Virus record (IMG/VR): IMGVR_UViG_3300033463_000025 | Span: 79,759-143,758 of that record | Source of the DNA: a virus | Taxonomy: Duplodnaviria > Caudoviricetes | Length of the DNA: 64,000 bases | Strand: one strand, 5' to 3' | Shown here: piece by piece, positions 4,157 to 10,468 of the stretch | How the letters are laid out: every line of letters begins with the position of its first letter | Position numbering within the stretch: position 1 is the stretch's first letter | The notes under the pieces: generated by a model | Database searches by the model: none | What the model was told of the DNA's origin: nothing | Seen by the model: only the letters and a program-made list of their open reading frames with translations | Made by a program: the position numbers and the translations under genes

Positions 4157-4212
4157 ATTATAGCACCATTAACAGCGTTTGTCAATAGCTCTATTGAATT
4201 ATTTTATAAAAT
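4157..4212 (-). promoter_or_regulatory. sigmaA-type promoter for the tRNA/ncRNA region
   Basis: TTGACA-17-TATAAT with an upstream TTTATAAAATAATTCAATA element. Confidence 0.8.
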
Positions 4213-4218
4213 TCTTAA

Positions 4219-4602
4219 TCATTCATTTTGTCCAAGAATAACAACAAAATCATCATTATCTTCAGCAAGTAAAGCCATCATATTTCTTGTATCGTCGTCG
4301 CAATAATCAACACGCTTTTGAATAATACTAAAACCACGCTCAAAATATGATTTGCTTGCCTCTAACTCTTCGCAAAACCAGTCCTCATAGTCTTCACCAT
4401 AGGTATCAAATAAATACTTGCGATAGTCTTCTTCATTCTTAAATATACAAGCATCTTCTGTTTCATAATAATACCTATTATTTTCAAAATGAACAAACAA
4501 TTCGACCATCTTATCAAAATACTTTACGGCAGGATTTTCACGGTAAGCGATGATAAAACTACTGCTTGAGCTATTTGTTACATAGTCTGTTCTTATTTTC
4601 AT
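4219..4602 (-). CDS. NSSSSS-leader family protein 6
   Basis: N-terminus MKIRTDYVTNSSSSSFII. Confidence 0.88.
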   Translation of the reverse strand: MKIRTDYVTNSSSSSFIIAYRENPAVKYFDKMVELFVHFENNRYYYETEDACIFKNEEDYRKYLFDTYGEDYEDWFCEELEASKSYFERGFSIIQKRVDYCDDDTRNMMALLAEDNDDFVVILGQNE

Positions 4603-4622
4603 ACTATCCTCCGCGTGATTTC

Positions 4623-5174
4623 TTATACTTGTTTATTCCAATCAGTAATAGCTTTCTCTCTACTATTTACGAATGAAGTTGTTTCCCAAGCATTACCACA
4701 TTGACAATTAACCTTATACCCTTTAGATTCATAGCCAGAACCGTAATCGCCTTCTGATACATAGAGCCATGATGTATTGCATTTAGGGCAAGGTTTGAGC
4801 TGTTCTTTAGATTGATTTTTGATATTGCTATCGACAACGATTCCGACGCAATACAGCTCACCGTCTTCATAGATATTGAACTCGGCGTGTGGCATTTCTG
4901 TTTTATAACTCCATGCACAATCGCGTTCTTTATCGCACCATACAGCTTCTATAGGTTTTGGCAATCTCTTATCCTCTATAATGCCACCACCAAAACAACC
5001 GTATTCGTCACGGAACGCTCCATAGATTTCACAGTTGTCATCACTATAACCAGTTACGACAATAAAGCCCAAACTCTTTGCAAGCTCTTCTTCGGCAGGA
5101 GATATTTCATTACCGTATTCCCCACCGTTAAGCATTTTTGCAAAATCATATATAGTCATATCCATATCTATCAC
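4623..5174 (-). CDS. phage protein with C-terminal Lar-like zinc ribbon
   Basis: C-terminal LKPCPKC...CQCG...AITDWN. Confidence 0.65.
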   Translation of the reverse strand: MIDMDMTIYDFAKMLNGGEYGNEISPAEEELAKSLGFIVVTGYSDDNCEIYGAFRDEYGCFGGGIIEDKRLPKPIEAVWCDKERDCAWSYKTEMPHAEFNIYEDGELYCVGIVVDSNIKNQSKEQLKPCPKCNTSWLYVSEGDYGSGYESKGYKVNCQCGNAWETTSFVNSREKAITDWNKQV

Positions 5175-5827
5175 CCCATATGGTTACAGTACAACGATGA
5201 TACTTTAGCAAGTGATTCTCTTACATAATCGGGAATATAGCAACCGTCTTCACCCCAAACAGCATAGTGACCGAATATGCTATATATTACATCTCTGCCT
5301 AATTTTCCTTTTATGCTACTGCACGTTAGCTTTTTCGTGTTAAACCTATAATCTTTTACACAGCAAATATCAGGGTAACACCCACCATCATAGCCGTTAT
5401 CAAGACAAGGTAAATACCAACCTGCAACGCTGTCCGCCGTGTCTGTGTCTTTGCTCAAATCGTGAATACTGAAGTCAATATACCATTTCCAATTTTTACC
5501 ATGCAAAGGCTCAAACTTTTTACGGAAATATGATATGTATTCATCATACGTTTCGCATGAATCTATCCAGCTATCATCACACTCTTCGTAAAACAAATCG
5601 TATGTTGATATACCATATTTATTTTTAATTCTCGTTTCGTTCTCATATTTCCAATTCCAATTATCCGCTTTACTGCCATACTTGCTTCTTATCAAATTTG
5701 ACTTTTCACGATGCTCTCTAAACTTTTCGCGGATAAAAGAATAAATATCATCAATAGTCCAGTCATCGCGGCTAATTACGAAAGAAGAACTACTCGAATT
5801 TGTTACAAAGTCTGTACGAATTTTCAT
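5171..5827 (-). CDS. NSSSSS-leader family protein 5
   Basis: MKIRTDFVTNSSSSSFVI; TAATG overlap with the upstream paralog; Cys-rich C-terminal half. Confidence 0.88.
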   Translation of the reverse strand: MKIRTDFVTNSSSSSFVISRDDWTIDDIYSFIREKFREHREKSNLIRSKYGSKADNWNWKYENETRIKNKYGISTYDLFYEECDDSWIDSCETYDEYISYFRKKFEPLHGKNWKWYIDFSIHDLSKDTDTADSVAGWYLPCLDNGYDGGCYPDICCVKDYRFNTKKLTCSSIKGKLGRDVIYSIFGHYAVWGEDGCYIPDYVRESLAKVSSLYCNHMG

Positions 5828-6210
5828 TAGCAACCACCCACTCCTATTACGAGTTTATCATTGTTAATACGGAAGGTATCTAAAAACATATCAAAGTCAT
5901 TGAGGTAATCATCAGTGTCAATCGTTCTTACATAAGCGATAAAGTCACCAATCTCAACATTCCAATATCCATTATCAGAAGAAACATAATCAAGAACAAT
6001 ATCCATTAATTCTTCTTTATCTTTCAACCTATCTTTTAACGAATATGGCAAATGAGCAAAATAACGCTTCATAGCTTTAACATATCTGCTATACCAATCT
6101 TTATCAGATTCAATAAGCTCACGCAGTTCATCACGAGTTACATCTTTGCGTTTTGCGATAATGAACGATGAGCTACTTGAATTTGTTACGAAATCAGTTC
6201 TAATCTTCAT
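5827..6210 (-). CDS. NSSSSS-leader family protein 4
   Basis: MKIRTDFVTNSSSSSFII. Confidence 0.88.
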   Translation of the reverse strand: MKIRTDFVTNSSSSSFIIAKRKDVTRDELRELIESDKDWYSRYVKAMKRYFAHLPYSLKDRLKDKEELMDIVLDYVSSDNGYWNVEIGDFIAYVRTIDTDDYLNDFDMFLDTFRINNDKLVIGVGGC

Positions 6211-6523
6211 AGAGAGAACCCCTTTCTTCTGGCTTTAGTAATATCCATTTTACAAAAGAAAAAATTGCAACAATTAAAAGTAACAATCCAAATACCAATA
6301 CCATAAATGCGTCTAATGGAAGAAAAACTATCTGAAACACAACTCCGACAATTATTCTTGGTATCAAACGATACTTTTTATTTGATATAAAATAATATGA
6401 TGATGGTAATGCAGGTGAAATAAATGTATCAATAAAAGGCGAGTGAGTCAGTTTATATATCATCATCCCGAAAAAAGCGGGAACATAAATAATAATGATT
6501 AATTCAAACAAAGTCATCAACAT
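6200..6523 (-). CDS. small membrane protein
   Basis: Two to three hydrophobic segments; overlaps the next gene inside the NSSSSS cluster. Confidence 0.75.
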   Translation of the reverse strand: MLMTLFELIIIIYVPAFFGMMIYKLTHSPFIDTFISPALPSSYYFISNKKYRLIPRIIVGVVFQIVFLPLDAFMVLVFGLLLLIVAIFSFVKWILLKPEERGSLYED

Positions 6524-6526
6524 ACC

Positions 6527-7033
6527 TCAATGATGATTATAAACACCAACAGTAAAGCCACAACGCGGGAGAATATGATGTTCCAATTCACAACCAACAA
6601 TATCATCATCGCCAAATGTTACAAGACAAACCAAATCTTTATCTTTGATTCTTGCTTTGACTCTTTTTATCTCATCTTGAATACGTTGTTCAATTTCCGC
6701 TTTTCCTTCTTCGGTTTTGCTATATTTGTATGCCTCAATATAAGATGTTCGGTTTTCAATTTCATAGTTATGTCTGACTTCATATTCAGCGTTCCAACGA
6801 TATTCCTCGTAAACTATCTCATCAATCTTTGCAACATTAAGCAAACCATTTAATTTATTCTTTAATTCTTCAATAACTGCTGGCTTATACTTTAAATAAT
6901 CCTCAACAGACCAACAATCCATATAACACTCAACGCTATTCTGAACTATTTGGTCAATATCATCGCTTGAATTAAACGCTAAAATAAAACTGCTACTGCT
7001 ACTATTAGTCACAAAGTCTGTGCGGATTTTCAT
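6527..7033 (-). CDS. NSSSSS-leader family protein 3
   Basis: MKIRTDFVTNSSSSSFIL; C-terminus LEHHILP...YNHH. Confidence 0.88.
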   Translation of the reverse strand: MKIRTDFVTNSSSSSFILAFNSSDDIDQIVQNSVECYMDCWSVEDYLKYKPAVIEELKNKLNGLLNVAKIDEIVYEEYRWNAEYEVRHNYEIENRTSYIEAYKYSKTEEGKAEIEQRIQDEIKRVKARIKDKDLVCLVTFGDDDIVGCELEHHILPRCGFTVGVYNHH

Positions 7034-7058
7034 TTGCAATCAACCCCTCTTTTAAAAA

Positions 7059-7433
7059 TCAATGATGACTATAACGTGTCACGGTACAGTATAAATAAGG
7101 GAAATATTCATGTTCTAAAAATGATTCTATATCAGTATCATCTTCAATTTCAATTTTAAAAAACCTATCAAATCCCTTTTTATCAGCAAGTTTTTTAATT
7201 CGTTCTACTTCAGCATCGCAATCGCTTCTGTAGTATTCTAACATAGATTTTATATTGTCCGTATCAACAACATCAGAAGCAAACTCAAGCAAATGTTCTA
7301 CTAAAGTATCAGCAAAATATCTATCAATACTATTTCTAATAGCATCAAATTTACTATCACATTCTTTTGAATTGTAGCCAATAATAAAACTGCTACTGCT
7401 ACTATTAGTTACAAAATCTTGTCTAAATTTCAT
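7059..7433 (-). CDS. NSSSSS-leader family protein 2
   Basis: MKFRQDFVTNSSSSSFII; C-terminus LEHEYFP...YSHH. Confidence 0.88.
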   Translation of the reverse strand: MKFRQDFVTNSSSSSFIIGYNSKECDSKFDAIRNSIDRYFADTLVEHLLEFASDVVDTDNIKSMLEYYRSDCDAEVERIKKLADKKGFDRFFKIEIEDDTDIESFLEHEYFPYLYCTVTRYSHH

Positions 7434-7779
7434 CTAAAATATCTCCTAATTCATTATCATCACAATTATACGGATTGCCTGGTAAATCATCTTCATCATA
7501 ATATATGTGAGAGCTGTCTACTCCAATGGCGCATAGAAAACTCTCTAAATCAAAATTATCCATTGATGTCCATGCACTAAGATAACGCCCTTCGTCAATA
7601 ATAGTCCACTCATCTTCAAAATCTGCCCAACCAAAATGATATGAACCTCTTTTAAGTAATCTCTTAGCAACCTCAATATGATTTTTGATTGCCCTAATTT
7701 GATTTTTAGTTAATCCACGCTTATCAATAATAAAGCTCGACGATGATGAATTTGTAACAAAATCTGTTCTGATTTTCAT
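7423..7779 (-). CDS. NSSSSS-leader family protein 1
   Basis: MKIRTDFVTNSSSSSFII. Confidence 0.88.
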   Translation of the reverse strand: MKIRTDFVTNSSSSSFIIDKRGLTKNQIRAIKNHIEVAKRLLKRGSYHFGWADFEDEWTIIDEGRYLSAWTSMDNFDLESFLCAIGVDSSHIYYDEDDLPGNPYNCDDNELGDILDEI

Positions 7780-7797
7780 ATGACTACCTCATCAAAA

Positions 7798-8049
7798 TTA
7801 TTTATCAAATTCTTTCCACTCTATTCTTTTTCCACAATGCCCACAATAATTAGAATGTGACCATGACTCTATCGGATATTTACAGCAACTACATTTACCC
7901 CAAAACCATTTCCCAAATGCAGTTTGTACTGTATTCATTTCTTCTGGTGTATTATGAGATATGCGGTAACACTCTGCAATTTCTTCTGTGATATTGTTGA
8001 TTTCTACTCCTGTGCGAATGTCACGAAACGGATAACTACTATTTTTCAT
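7798..8049 (-). CDS. zinc-ribbon phage protein
   Basis: CSCC...YCGHCGKRIEW. Confidence 0.7.
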   Translation of the reverse strand: MKNSSYPFRDIRTGVEINNITEEIAECYRISHNTPEEMNTVQTAFGKWFWGKCSCCKYPIESWSHSNYCGHCGKRIEWKEFDK

Positions 8050-8306
8050 AAATATATCATCCTCTTTAACAGCTTTATTCCATCGGTATTTAACAGCTTT
8101 TCTTTATCCTCATTATCCATGAGCTTTGCATTAACAAGGTAATTAACCAAAAAGCTATAATCTCTTATCAAATCTCTGGCGCAAAAGTTTAAATCTTCAT
8201 ATTTACCGAGAGCGTTCCTCAATGCCTGAATCTCATCATATGGGTTATCATATTCTACGCATGAACCATAATCACCCATAGAAGATTTATAAGTAAGCCT
8301 ACTCAT
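8046..8306 (-). CDS. hypothetical phage protein
   Basis: Start reset to MSRLTY; overlaps both neighbours. Confidence 0.65.
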   Translation of the reverse strand: MSRLTYKSSMGDYGSCVEYDNPYDEIQALRNALGKYEDLNFCARDLIRDYSFLVNYLVNAKLMDNEDKEKLLNTDGIKLLKRMIYL

Positions 8307-8610
8307 TATCTTCAACCACCATCTTAGAACGTATGCTGTACAATCCGCATAGAGCCATTTCAAGTTTTTCAATTCTGCCACGCAAAGACCTAATCGTTTC
8401 ATCTAAGTCTTTGCCATCAGCCGAATAATAATATCCACGATGACAAGAGCAAACCGCAAAACCGTCACTTCTTGCTTCGTTTATATATTGACGAACAGTA
8501 AACTCGCTAAGTGAAAATCTGTCACCTAATTCACGACCTATGATAGATTTGTCCTTTTCGTTGGCGTAAGTGATAATATAATTAATCAAAGGCATATATC
8601 TTTTCATCAT
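8299..8610 (-). CDS. winged-HTH DNA-binding protein
   Basis: GRELGDRFSLSEFTVRQYINEAR..G..V.S..RGYY. Confidence 0.7.
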   Translation of the reverse strand: MMKRYMPLINYIITYANEKDKSIIGRELGDRFSLSEFTVRQYINEARSDGFAVCSCHRGYYYSADGKDLDETIRSLRGRIEKLEMALCGLYSIRSKMVVEDNE

Positions 8611-9668
8611 ACACAATCCTTTTCTGCATTGTTGCAAAGTACAATTTCTCTGCAAATCGGACAGCCACCAGCACAGCAACCGCGCTTCGGGCAATTCGGA
8701 CAAGAGTTAGCCAGAGAATATCTAAACTTGTTAAATACTTCTCCATCCCATGCCTCTTGAATTGTGTGGTTTCGTAGATTAACAAACCATTTAGGATTCT
8801 GATTGCCAAAACTACAGGGCATGGCGTTCATATGAGCATCAATATACATCGAGAAGCGTCCGCCCTCGCAATAGTCGATACTGTCAAGATTGATTTTTGA
8901 CGTATTGTTTACGATGCCTGCACAAGAGCAAGAATCAAAACCGATTTTGAAGTCAAATTTTCCATTGTCTATAATATCGAAAAACTCTTTCACTTTCGGA
9001 TTGTCGGGCGTTAAGATGTTTTCAATCTTACCTAAACCGATAGGCTTATAAAGCAGAAAGACAATAGCGTTAATACCCTTATGGAAGCCGTTATTCTTTA
9101 AGCGGTCGATAGCATCATCAATACTCTTTGCAGATAAGACGTAATGGATGTTAGTCTTTACACCAGCCTCGATAAGAAGATTCAATGCTCTTTCGGTATA
9201 ATCAGCATTGTGCTCAGATACGGCGACCGCGCCACAATACTGTTTACAAAGCTCCGCCTTTTCTTTTGTAAAAGCGATACCAGATGTAGTAAAGTTCGGT
9301 ACAACTCCATACTGACGAGAGAGCTTTAAGATTTCTTCAAAGTGTTCGTGCGTATCAGGGTCGCCAGCTCCACCGAGAGCTACTTGGAACAGCTTGCCTT
9401 CTCCCTGTTTCATTATATCTTCGTAATCATCAAGGCTCATATTCTCGCCCGTTCTGTCACAAGCCTTTTGGTAACAATCCACTTTACACTTGTGAGCACA
9501 AACGCATCTTTCCATTATGCCAATGTCAATAAGCTGTGGGAAGTTCCGCATAAACGGGTCAACGCCTGTGTCTTTTCCATCCTCAATAACACCTGTTCTC
9601 ATATAAAAACCTGTGTTCGGGTCAAACTGTTCTACAAACTTGTTTTTTCTGTCAATATAAACGTTCAT
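8607..9668 (-). CDS. radical SAM enzyme with C-terminal SPASM domain
   Basis: Cys cluster CVCAHKCKVDCYQ, LGGAGDP, FTTSG; SPASM CEGG..MYID..MPCSF..CPNC..CAGGCP. Confidence 0.92.
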   Translation of the reverse strand: MNVYIDRKNKFVEQFDPNTGFYMRTGVIEDGKDTGVDPFMRNFPQLIDIGIMERCVCAHKCKVDCYQKACDRTGENMSLDDYEDIMKQGEGKLFQVALGGAGDPDTHEHFEEILKLSRQYGVVPNFTTSGIAFTKEKAELCKQYCGAVAVSEHNADYTERALNLLIEAGVKTNIHYVLSAKSIDDAIDRLKNNGFHKGINAIVFLLYKPIGLGKIENILTPDNPKVKEFFDIIDNGKFDFKIGFDSCSCAGIVNNTSKINLDSIDYCEGGRFSMYIDAHMNAMPCSFGNQNPKWFVNLRNHTIQEAWDGEVFNKFRYSLANSCPNCPKRGCCAGGCPICREIVLCNNAEKDCV

Positions 9669-9678
9669 AACTTACCTC

Positions 9679-10395
9679 TCAAATTTTCCATTGTTTATTT
9701 GCATTTTCAAAAATATATGTAAGGCGACGTGGCGCATATTGCCGTGTCGTCAATCCGTTAATAGCAGACTTCATATCAGCCAACATAACGGAATTAACCT
9801 TGCAATCAGAAAGCTGTCCGAGAATAAACAGCTCATCCTTAACCTTCCGCCGAGCAATCAGGCGTTCTTTTAGCATCAAACACAGAATGTATGCTTTGTA
9901 CATATCAAAGTTATTCAACTCAATAAAGTGTTCTATGTCGCTATCTTCAAGGTCTATTTCACTTAACGCTTGTCGCAACTTTGTCTTTCGTTCTTCCGCT
10001 GTAGTGATAAAGTCAGTTAAAGAATCAACCTCTGCATTTATTCTATCAATATGAGCACTGTTCAAATCAATGTCCGATATTGATTTTATAGATAACTTTT
10101 CAGTTGGCTTTGGAATTTCTTTCTGTACTGGTGTTATCTTTTCCACTTCAGGCTTTATCTTTTTAATGGTCTGTTCATCACTACTTTCTGTCGTAAGCTC
10201 TTTAACGTGATACCTCGCTCTCAAATTCTTATTGATTGAATTTTGTAGAACGTTCTTGGCTTTATAATAATTATCCCACATCTTTGCTAACATCCAGTTA
10301 TCAACAGGAATATAATTACCTTGTGCGTCTTCTCTTAGATAATGACCATGAGAGTCAACAAGCACAAACTTTCCCAACTTTTCCACCTCTTTCAT
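9679..10395 (-). CDS. hypothetical coiled-coil phage protein
   Basis: DIEHFIE...RRKVKDE...YAPR; first gene of the rSAM operon. Confidence 0.75.
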   Translation of the reverse strand: MKEVEKLGKFVLVDSHGHYLREDAQGNYIPVDNWMLAKMWDNYYKAKNVLQNSINKNLRARYHVKELTTESSDEQTIKKIKPEVEKITPVQKEIPKPTEKLSIKSISDIDLNSAHIDRINAEVDSLTDFITTAEERKTKLRQALSEIDLEDSDIEHFIELNNFDMYKAYILCLMLKERLIARRKVKDELFILGQLSDCKVNSVMLADMKSAINGLTTRQYAPRRLTYIFENANKQWKI

Positions 10396-10439
10396 ATCGT
10401 TATTTTATCACTCTATTGAGTTATGTTATAAATTATTTT

Positions 10440-10467
10440 TTATAGGGGCTGGTTAAGCCCCTATAAA
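10440..10467. terminator. intrinsic terminator-like hairpin
   Basis: TATAGGGGCT-GGTTA-AGCCCCTATA with flanking T/A runs. Confidence 0.7.
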
Positions 10468-10468
10468 A

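What the first reader, a model, noticed from the sequence alone, without database searches (positions are those of the whole stretch)
4219..9668. Radical SAM/SPASM enzyme co-encoded with six proteins sharing a near-invariant MKIRTDFVTNSSSSSF N-terminus: candidate new protein-modification system
Seen: six genes (118-218 aa) begin MK(I/F)R(T/Q)D(F/Y)VTNSSSSSF(I/V)(I/L) and then largely diverge. The five Ser codons switch between TCN and AGY across paralogs (AGC TCA AGC AGT AGT; TCG AGT AGT TCT TCT; TCA TCA TCG TCG AGC), so the motif is kept at the peptide level and is not a DNA repeat. They lie in one tightly packed - strand run downstream of an rSAM-SPASM gene, together with a membrane protein and an HTH protein. 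Established: SPASM rSAM enzymes (anSME, ranthi/sactipeptide maturases, PqqE, spliceases) modify peptides or proteins at short motifs, and anSME converts Ser/Cys to formylglycine. Inference: the 16-residue tag is a portable recognition or modification site placed on several cargo domains, and the phage modifies full-size proteins rather than RiPP precursors. Alternatives are an autoprocessing N/S site or a shared assembly strand. I do not recognise a characterised family.
Basis: partly seen in the sequence, partly recalled or inferred. Interest (0 to 1): 0.92.

Follow-up and report, generated by a model that had tools for sequence, protein, structure and literature searches.

The report
Radical-SAM enzyme with serine-tagged client proteins
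This gut phage encodes one iron-sulfur "radical SAM" enzyme and six otherwise unrelated small proteins that all start with the same 16-residue serine-rich tag. The same enzyme-plus-tag pair recurs in hundreds of phages and many anaerobic bacteria, so it is probably an undescribed system that chemically matures whole proteins.

Summary
Six minus-strand genes (118-218 aa) begin MK[IF]R[TQ]D[FY]VTNSSSSSF. Thirteen columns are invariant, while 6-14 of the 16 tag codons differ synonymously between paralogs.

With the tag removed, only two of the six bodies are detectably related. Two AlphaFold models of unrelated bodies both place residues 1-10/11 at low confidence and start the first beta-strand at the end of the Ser run.

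The link to the rSAM/SPASM gene (8607-9668) is very strong:
- 70 of 76 tag-seeded viral loci carry the rSAM.
- 73 of 78 rSAM-seeded viral loci carry tags.
- 72 of 80 bacterial loci carry both.
- In 50,697 cultured phages, the same ~170 T4-like phages (including RB43) hold both.
- No third gene family is conserved.

In bacteria the unit is an Xre regulator, one tag protein and the rSAM. It sits beside CRISPR or restriction-modification genes, without phage structural genes.

Best reading (0.6): the enzyme docks on and modifies the exposed N-terminal tag of folded, mostly acidic effector proteins. The chemistry and the biological role are not shown. I found no description of the system in the literature. 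Earlier notes of this scan record the same system on other DNA at least 17 times.

The parts
10402..10468 (-). Terminator-like hairpin (10468-10438) closing the upstream gene, followed by a promoter-like site (10429-10402). Probable start of the transcription unit.
   Evidence: 13-bp stem plus T tail; ATAACA-16-TAAAAT with a TG extension. This is a consensus scan only.
9679..10395 (-). 238-aa protein of unknown function, first gene of the run. Not a conserved partner.
   Evidence: No Pfam hit. Homologues in 6 of 49 non-redundant loci.
8607..9668 (-). Radical SAM / SPASM enzyme, 353 aa. The Cys triad is in CVCAHKCKVDCY (Cx3Cx3C here). It has a GGxGD SAM-binding motif and the full SPASM cysteine set: C323-x2-C326-x5-C332-x3-C336...C345, plus C247, C267 and C285.
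   Evidence: (phrog_7293, 1.6e-28).
8299..8610 (-). HTH_11 DNA-binding protein (about 103 aa). Its start overlaps the rSAM stop codon.
   Evidence: 27.8 bits, cut-off 25. Homologues in 8 of 49 non-redundant loci.
8046..8306 (-). 86-aa protein of unknown function.
   Evidence: no family.
7798..8049 (-). 83-aa protein rich in Cys pairs (zinc-ribbon-like), phrog_10714.
7423..7779 (-). Tag protein F (118 aa). Body type 'TSMDNFD', with invariant D74 and N75.
   Evidence: AlphaFold model: residues 1-11 below pLDDT 50, strand at 14-19.
7059..7433 (-). Tag protein E (124 aa). Short form of the 'LEH...SHH' body type.
   Evidence: hhalign against protein D gives 99.5% probability.
6527..7033 (-). Tag protein D (168 aa). 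'LEH...(S/N)HH' body type with invariant E151 and H168. It has a homologue in phage RB43.
   Evidence: pLDDT 91.9; residues 1-10 below 50; strand 13-20; hhalign 98.9% to the RB43 protein.
6200..6523 (-). 107-aa protein with three hydrophobic segments (membrane protein by inspection). Not conserved with the system.
   Evidence: No homologue in the 76 tag-seeded viral loci.
5827..6210 (-). Tag protein C (127 aa), its own body type.
5171..5827 (-). Tag protein B (218 aa, 9 Cys), its own body type. Its ATG overlaps the stop codon of protein C (TAATG).
4623..5174 (-). 183-aa protein without the tag: phrog_25176 N-terminal part plus a Lar-like zinc ribbon at the C-terminus.
   Evidence: Lar_restr_allev 25.1 bits, below the 28.6 cut-off. 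(phrog_25176, 7.8e-22; phrog_599, 1.5e-4).
4219..4602 (-). Tag protein A (127 aa). 'IIAY...DNDDFVIL' body type.

Best explanation
This is a two-part protein-maturation module. One part is a radical SAM/SPASM enzyme. The other is a set of client proteins that carry an invariant N-terminal tag (consensus MKIR-x-D-F-V-T-N-S-S-S-S-S-F). In each client, the first 10-12 residues form an exposed tail, and the end of the Ser run plus the following hydrophobic residues form the first beta-strand of an otherwise unrelated, mostly acidic body. The proposed mechanism is inferred, not shown. The enzyme takes the tail into its active site and, using the SAM-derived radical and its two auxiliary clusters, modifies one or more residues of the most conserved core, [FY]-x-[TS]-N-S-S-S. 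The most plausible reactions are oxidation of a Ser/Thr side chain or a cross-link. One enzyme therefore matures every client, and the variable bodies supply different targets. Several features suggest the clients are effectors in phage-host or mobile-element conflict: early-operon position, tandem hypervariable arrays, acidity, LRR fusions, and bacterial copies beside CRISPR and restriction-modification genes. Whether they act for attack or for defence is unknown.
For: The tag is kept at the peptide level only: 0-3 non-synonymous against 3-14 synonymous codon differences.

Tag and rSAM co-occur in both directions:
- 70 of 76 tag-seeded viral loci have the rSAM on the same strand.
- 73 of 78 rSAM-seeded loci have 1-7 tags, all on the same strand. 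The five without tags are short or cut contigs.
- A complete 244-kb phage keeps both genes 21 kb apart.
- 72 of 80 bacterial loci have both, usually one tag gene directly upstream of the rSAM.
- Among 50,697 cultured phages, the rSAM is in 170 records and a D-type tag protein in 175, with nearly the same genus counts.
- RB43 has two tag genes 20-24 kb from its rSAM.

Across 49 non-redundant loci, the tag family is present in 46-47 and the next commonest family in only 13. With the tag removed, only one pair of the six bodies is homologous. Two AlphaFold models of unrelated bodies both give a low-confidence tail (residues 1-10 or 1-11) followed by a first strand.

The enzyme has an intact SPASM cysteine set. 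Its nearest solved relatives act on peptides or proteins: SkfB, PqqE and anSME. Bacterial cassettes lie next to a type I-E cas operon, and next to restriction-modification, helicase and T4SS genes, with no phage structural genes. Bodies are acidic: median pI 4.6, and 87% are below 5. Two tag proteins are fused to LRR repeats. There is precedent for rSAM-matured full-size conflict proteins in HxsB/C-HxsA (PMC13128918).
Against: No experiment or complex model shows that the enzyme touches the tag. Low pLDDT in an invariant terminal segment can be an artefact of missing covariation. The tag has no Cys, so the best-known SPASM chemistries (thioethers) do not apply, and the anSME motif (C/S)xPxR is absent. 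The enzyme has no RiPP recognition element. Covariation between tag D6->G and loss of rSAM K171/K241 appears in two clades, but the overlap is not significant and L071 is a counter-example. The radical SAM cysteine spacing is non-canonical in this clade, and the Pfam Radical_SAM score is below its cut-off.
Confidence: 0.6

Rival explanations
1. Adaptor model. The tag is only a docking peptide and is not itself modified. Each client uses its variable body to bind a different host or phage molecule and brings it to the rSAM enzyme, which modifies that third party.
For: This model explains the same co-occurrence, the exposed tail and the unrelated bodies. LRR fusions look like binding modules. 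All three paralogs of the L134 clade carry the same D6->G change, which fits a shared docking partner.
Against: Docking interfaces normally drift. Here the NSSS core is invariant, and the whole 16-residue tag is nearly so, while the enzyme falls to 29% identity. That fits a catalytic substrate better. Characterised SPASM enzymes act on the genetically linked peptide or protein itself.
Confidence: 0.15
2. The tag has a function of its own. It could be self-processing at the Asn-Ser bond, an anion or metal-binding loop, or a site that binds or carries a small molecule made by the rSAM. Under this reading the enzyme is linked only indirectly.
For: The end of the Ser run and FII(A) are predicted as the first core strand. 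The D-type body has invariant E151 and H168 and near-invariant D142. These might sit near the Ser run and form a site.
Against: These acidic and His residues are absent from the other body types, yet the tag is identical in all of them. K2, R4 and the tail are just as invariant despite the low-confidence, exposed prediction. I had no model coordinates to test proximity.
Confidence: 0.15
3. The tag is a capsid-targeting or other virion-packaging signal, like the shared N-terminal sequence of the T4 internal proteins. Under this reading the rSAM is a syntenic bystander.
For: The resemblance is one invariant N-terminal peptide on hypervariable small acidic phage proteins in tandem. The comparison with T4 internal proteins rests on my own knowledge.
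Against: The tag-rSAM pair occurs as a small cassette in bacterial chromosomes with no phage structural genes nearby. It occurs in phages with unrelated virion types, both T4-like and SPbeta-like. Co-occurrence with the rSAM persists even when the two are 20 kb apart.
Confidence: 0.03
4. Plain synteny. The tag family and the rSAM are merely neighbours in a conserved early-gene block, with no functional link.
For: They sit in one operon here.
Against: No other gene of the block is conserved with them: the next family is in 13 of 49 loci. The pair is found across Bacillota phages, enterobacterial T4-like phages and several bacterial phyla, in different contexts.
Confidence: 0.03

Closest known systems
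Anaerobic sulfatase-maturating enzymes (anSME/AtsB) with their sulfatase clients
   Same: A SPASM radical SAM enzyme acts on full-size proteins at a short Ser/Cys-containing motif near the N-terminus, and one enzyme serves several clients. The SPASM region matches anSME weakly (E 4e-3).
   Different: There is no (C/S)xPxR motif and there are no sulfatase bodies. The tag is at the extreme N-terminus. The clients are unrelated small acidic proteins. The system is borne by phages and mobile cassettes. The relationship holds only at superfamily level.
RiPP radical SAM/SPASM or twitch maturases with families of precursors that share a leader (SkfB, PqqE, MftC, sactipeptide and ranthipeptide synthases)
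   Same: One enzyme sits beside several co-encoded substrates that have a conserved N-terminal part and a variable remainder. SkfB is the best solved-structure match (3e-4).
   Different: The clients are 118-218 aa with confidently predicted folds. There is no RRE domain and no conserved protease or exporter. The conserved part is 16 residues and contains no Cys.
HXS anti-phage system: HxsB/HxsC radical SAM enzymes maturing the HxsA effector (PMC13128918)
   Same: It is a radical SAM-matured full-size protein effector in phage-bacterium conflict, with a Ser-containing short motif and N-terminal processing.
   Different: It uses different enzyme families: no NCBIfam Hxs model was among the families the rSAM matched. 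HxsA has internal HxS repeats and is periplasmic. That system is bacterial and defensive. Here the tag is at the N-terminus, one enzyme is enough, and the system is mainly phage-borne.
T4 internal proteins (IPI-III) with their shared capsid-targeting sequence (from my own knowledge)
   Same: Tandem, hypervariable, small phage proteins share only a short invariant N-terminal peptide.
   Different: That peptide directs packaging and is cut by the prohead protease. Here the peptide travels with a radical SAM enzyme and also occurs in bacteria without virion genes.
KpAvs2-Avap1-Avap2 operon (PMC11564622)
   Same: A radical SAM protein of unknown role (Avap1) is encoded next to a small accessory protein (Avap2) in a defence operon. 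Earlier notes of this scan call it a sister form.
   Different: Avap2 is defined by DUF6375 (PF19902). That model finds nothing in this phage, and no tag gene in five tag-bearing bacterial genomes. I could not compare Avap1 with this rSAM clade.

Membership tests
Radical SAM superfamily (PF04055) | Three-cysteine motif that binds the SAM-cleaving [4Fe-4S] cluster (canonical CX3CX2C) | tested here: inconclusive
   Three Cys are always present, but the spacing varies by clade. It is CX3CX2C in the distant clade (L053/L065/L073/L075), Cx3Cx3C in the window clade, and Cx7Cx6C in the 53%-identity clade. The Pfam score of 26.8 bits is below the 29.5 cut-off.
Radical SAM superfamily (PF04055) | Gly-rich 'GGE'-type SAM-binding motif after the second strand | tested here: met
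   ALGG(A/R)GD, with L98, G99, G100 and G102 invariant in 57 homologues.
SPASM domain (PF13186 / TIGR04085) | C-terminal cysteine set CX2CX5CX3C...C plus upstream Cys for two auxiliary clusters | tested here: met
   Pfam SPASM 28.8 bits against a 21.5 cut-off. C323, C326, C332, C336 and C345 are conserved at 91-100%. C247, C267 and C285 are invariant.
anSME / AtsB sulfatase maturases | Substrate motif (C/S)-x-(P/A)-x-R in a co-occurring sulfatase | tested here: not met
   The tag has no Pro or Arg after the Ser run. No sulfatase family appears in the neighbourhood census. The sequence match covers the SPASM part only.
RiPP radical SAM maturase systems | RRE (PqqD-like) leader-binding domain in or beside the enzyme | tested here: not met
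   Pfam gives only SPASM and Radical_SAM. The N-terminal extension is about 50 residues. No conserved third gene exists. A structural RRE was not searched for.
RiPP radical SAM maturase systems | Short precursor peptides with leader and core, released by a protease and/or exporter | tested here: not met
   Clients are 118-218 aa with predicted folds of pLDDT 92 and 77. No protease or transporter family is conserved.
PHROG families phrog_7397 (clients) and phrog_7293 (enzyme), both of unknown function | Profile match | tested here: met
   All six clients hit phrog_7397 (E 4.5e-8 to 0.042, mostly through the tag). The enzyme hits phrog_7293 at 1.6e-28.
Avap2 / DUF6375 (PF19902) of the KpAvs2 operon | Match to the DUF6375 profile | tested here: not met
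   No match at E<=10 in the phage genome. In five tag-bearing bacterial genomes there were only two sub-threshold hits, and none lay at a tag gene.
His-Xaa-Ser (Hxs) and FxSxx-COOH (Fxs) radical SAM systems | Match to the curated NCBIfam maturase models, and the HxS or FxSxx substrate motifs | tested here: not met
   The NCBIfam scan lists no Hxs or Fxs model. The best hits (tungsten-cofactor maturase, PqqE, MftC) are far below their cut-offs. The substrate motif here is N-terminal TNSSSSS.
T4-type capsid-targeting sequence proteins | Restricted to phages with the matching prohead scaffold and protease | tested here: not met
   The cassette occurs in bacterial chromosomes beside cas and restriction-modification genes, with no virion genes within 10 kb.

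The most novel reading that the evidence does not exclude
This is a previously unrecognised kind of post-translational system. A portable N-terminal peptide marks any folded protein for radical SAM chemistry of a new type, for example a Ser/Thr-derived aldehyde, an ether, or an aromatic cross-link in F-V-T-N-S-S-S. Phages use it to arm or switch on a whole arsenal of hypervariable effectors, and bacteria keep a one-client version under an Xre regulator.
Probability: 0.3. Interest if true: 0.92.

Novelty: new variant of a known kind. Interest (0 to 1): 0.8.

Why it matters
Radical SAM/SPASM enzymes are known mostly as makers of small modified peptides and of a few cofactor-like protein modifications. 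This clade is large: 501 representatives at 50% identity score E<=1e-30, and 2,098 score E<=1e-10. Its clients appear to be whole proteins of many unrelated types, recognised through one 16-residue tag.

If the modification is real, it would add three things. The first is a new enzyme-substrate pair with unknown chemistry. The second is a possible general tag for enzymatic protein modification. The third is a function for hundreds of 'hypothetical' early proteins of gut, rumen and T4-like phages.

The pair is present in cultured E. coli, Klebsiella, Enterobacter and Cronobacter phages such as RB43. The question can therefore be tested directly with standard genetics and mass spectrometry.

Tried and rejected
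- **Family and structure searches.** Pfam, NCBIfam and PADLOC gave nothing for the clients. A PDB sequence search with the D-type profile had a best E-value of 0.8.
- **Fold searches of the 168-aa model.** Foldseek against the PDB had a best E-value of 1.7. VIA-align against 48,161 chains had a best Z of 6.5, on a helical hairpin only. BFVD had a best E-value of 0.14. The ESM Atlas returned only unnamed, mostly viral clusters for proteins D and B. I therefore do not claim a known fold or a new one.
- **tblastn of protein D against cultured phages.** No match. The T4-like members were found only through the rSAM and through RB43's own client.
- **Capsid-targeting idea.** Rejected because of the bacterial cassettes.
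- **DUF6375/Avap2 link from earlier notes.** Not supported here.
- **Charge covariation.** Tag D6->G against loss of rSAM K171/K241 appears in two clades. However, the overlap test gives P=0.17, and L071 keeps D6 without either lysine. I treat this as weak.
- **Literature searches.** I searched for the motif strings and for phage radical SAM/SPASM systems and found no description.
- No model coordinates were available, so I could not measure distances between the Ser run and the conserved D/E/H residues. Complex prediction was not on offer.

Full report
**What is there.** The window lies in a complete 143.8-kb phage genome with direct terminal repeats. Earlier notes of this scan describe it as an SPbeta-like phage of gut Clostridia.

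On the minus strand, a tightly packed run extends from a promoter-like site just after a strong terminator (10468-10402) down to 4219. A consensus promoter for a tRNA block follows. The gene order is:
- a 238-aa protein of unknown function
- the rSAM/SPASM gene (8607-9668)
- an HTH_11 gene (8299-8610)
- two small proteins of unknown function
- tag proteins F, E and D
- a small membrane protein
- tag proteins C and B
- a 183-aa protein with a Lar-like zinc ribbon
- tag protein A

- The six tag proteins share 13 invariant columns at their extreme N-terminus, and identity of the other five to the first paralog is 27-37%.
- Between paralogs, 3-14 of the 16 tag codons differ synonymously and only 0-3 non-synonymously. 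One pair has 14 synonymous and no non-synonymous differences. Selection therefore acts on the peptide.
- Each tag gene has its own Shine-Dalgarno-like sequence, and several starts overlap the preceding stop codon.
- The genome holds no further copies of the tag.

**The tag heads unrelated bodies.** I removed the tag and compared profiles built from each paralog's relatives. Only the 124-aa and 168-aa proteins are related (hhalign 99.5%). Every other pair scores below 16% probability. So there are at least five body types in this one phage.

Each type has its own conserved residues. The D/E type has a C-terminal LEH...(S/N)HH with invariant E151 and H168. The F type has an invariant D74-N75 in TSMDNFD. 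Elsewhere the same tag is fused to roughly 450-550-aa proteins with BspA-type leucine-rich repeats. Across 386 distinct bodies the median pI is 4.6, and 87% are below 5.

**Structure predictions.** The 168-aa protein folds with pLDDT 91.9 and pTM 0.84, and the 118-aa protein with pLDDT 77. In both, the only long low-confidence segment is the tag's first 10-11 residues, and the first beta-strand starts at S13/S14 and runs through FII. The tag therefore looks like an exposed tail that leads into the first core strand. One caveat applies: an invariant terminal segment gives AlphaFold no covariation, so low confidence does not prove disorder. No known fold was found for the 168-aa model.

**The enzyme.** The SPASM cysteine pattern is complete and conserved, and the GGxGD SAM-binding motif is invariant. 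The cluster-binding triad is always three cysteines, but the spacing differs by clade. It is canonical CX3CX2C in the most distant members, Cx3Cx3C in the window clade and Cx7Cx6C in another.

The nearest solved proteins are SkfB (3e-4), PqqE and anSME. All three act on peptides or proteins, and all are only distant relatives. No curated NCBIfam model reaches its cut-off. The clade is large: 501 representatives at 50% identity score E<=1e-30.

**The link between tag and enzyme.** This is the key result.
- Starting from the tag, 154 viral stretches were confirmed and 76 loci were kept. They carry arrays of 1-7 tag genes.
- Of those 76 loci, 70 have a homologue of this rSAM (24-78% identity) on the same strand, usually 0-3.5 kb upstream. 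Two of the six exceptions are cut at that end.
- In one complete 244-kb phage the enzyme lies 21 kb away from the tag gene.
- Starting from the enzyme, 73 of 78 loci have tag genes. All 293 tag occurrences are on the enzyme's strand. The five loci without tags are short or truncated contigs.
- After collapsing to 49 enzyme clusters at 90% identity, the tag family is present in 46-47. The next most frequent family is present in 13. So the conserved core is two parts only.
- In bacterial genomes, 72 of 80 tag loci carry the enzyme. The hosts are mostly Lachnospiraceae and Oscillospiraceae. They also include Desulfovibrionaceae, Desulfobacterales, Bacteroidales, Arcobacteraceae, Synergistaceae, Selenomonadaceae and others.
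- The usual bacterial form is a single 121-129-aa client ending in GIDTDLSY, directly upstream of the enzyme. An Xre-type HTH_3 gene sits beside it in all three loci tested.
- Two bacterial contexts were annotated. One is immediately upstream of a type I-E cas operon. The other lies between a restriction-modification pair, a Schlafen-like helicase and a PIN protein on one side, and a PIF1-like helicase, ClpP and a T4SS coupling protein on the other. Neither has phage structural genes.

**Cultured phages.** Enzyme homologues at 29-31% identity and over 90% coverage occur in 170 of 50,697 records, all T4-like phages of Klebsiella, Enterobacter, Cronobacter, Citrobacter and Escherichia.

RB43 has no tag within 7 kb of its enzyme gene. 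It does have two genes that begin MKIRSGFVSNSSSSSF, 20-24 kb away. One of them is a full-length homologue of the window's 168-aa protein, including the LEH...SHH end (hhalign 98.9%). That client occurs in 175 records with almost the same genus counts as the enzyme. The pair therefore stays together across very distant phages, even when the genes are not adjacent.

**How it most likely works.**
- Shown: peptide-level conservation, portability of the tag, strict co-inheritance with one SPASM radical SAM clade, and independence from any third gene and from virion genes.
- Inferred: the enzyme binds the exposed tail and modifies it within the most conserved core, [FY]-x-[TS]-N-S-S-S. This core stays fixed even where D6 becomes G, or T9 becomes S.
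- The chemistry is open. There is no Cys, so thioether formation within the tag is excluded. Side-chain oxidation as in anSME, epimerisation, an ether, or an aromatic-to-beta-carbon cross-link are all possible.
- Biological role: the bodies probably carry the function. The clues are early expression, tandem hypervariable arrays, acidity, LRR fusions, a Lar-like gene inside the array, and defence-island or mobile-element contexts in bacteria. Together they point to conflict effectors. Nothing here tells attack from defence.

**Rivals.**
- A docking-only (adaptor) role for the tag fits nearly all the data. It is the main alternative.
- I looked for covariation between tag D6->G and the enzyme. 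Both G6 clades have lost K171 and K241, two of six conserved basic positions. However, the overlap is not significant (P=0.17), and L071 keeps D6 without these lysines.
- An intrinsic role for the Ser run, such as self-cleavage or a binding loop, is possible. It does not explain why the tail is equally invariant on unrelated bodies.
- Capsid targeting and plain synteny are disfavoured by the bacterial cassettes and by the unlinked but co-inherited copies.

**Comparison with what is known.** It works like an anSME-sulfatase or leader-dependent RiPP system, with one SPASM enzyme and several linked ribosomal substrates. It fails their defining tests. There is no (C/S)xPxR motif, no RRE, no short precursors and no protease or exporter.

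HxsB/C-HxsA shows that radical SAM-matured whole-protein effectors exist in phage defence. Kaur et al. predicted SPASM-modified peptides in other conflict systems. The Avap1/Avap2 lead from earlier notes was read. Its testable part, Avap2 = DUF6375 = tag protein, was not met.

I found no paper that describes this tag or this pairing. Earlier notes of this scan report the same system on other DNA at least 17 times.

**Verdict.** This is a real, widespread and so far undescribed enzyme-client module. The modification itself remains an inference. I class it as a new variant of a known kind (radical SAM/SPASM maturase with genetically linked substrates), with interest 0.8.

Noticed in passing
L068:5961-8321: The rSAM homologue of this viral contig is a 786-aa ORF interrupted by an intein that carries a LAGLIDADG endonuclease (Intein_splicing 38.9 bits). 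Several 659-794-aa representatives in the large search look similar.
   Followed up: partly
window 4623-5174 (-): A 183-aa protein without the tag sits inside the tag array. It joins a phrog_25176 N-terminal part to a Lar-like restriction-alleviation zinc ribbon (below the Pfam cut-off). It may be an anti-restriction gene.
   Followed up: no
window 9494-9506 (-) region of the rSAM; loci L053, L065, L041 and others: The spacing of the radical SAM cysteine triad changes between clades (CX3CX2C, Cx3Cx3C, Cx7Cx6C), while the three cysteines are always kept.
   Followed up: partly
P0121, P0122 (metagenomic proteins): The same N-terminal tag is fused to 469-546-aa proteins with C-terminal BspA-type LRR_5 repeats.
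   Followed up: no
L156 (Gastranaerophilales MAG contig), 4899-~13000: The largest array seen: ten tag genes downstream of one rSAM gene.
   Followed up: no
L165:9584-9898, L171:11534-11848, L198:11459-11830: Bacterial tag-rSAM cassettes carry an Xre-type HTH_3 gene next to the pair. The phage window has an HTH_11 gene instead (8299-8610).
   Followed up: partly
L182:8169-8888: A variant tag, MKIRTDFVTNSSSYSS, on a 239-aa protein lies directly upstream of the rSAM in Pseudoflavonifractor phocaeensis. A canonical tag gene lies downstream.
   Followed up: no
window 10438-10468 and 4157-4185 (-): A 13-bp terminator hairpin precedes the operon. A perfect TTGACA-17-TATAAT promoter with a TG extension follows it and drives the tRNA-Gln/tRNA-Met block.
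   Followed up: no
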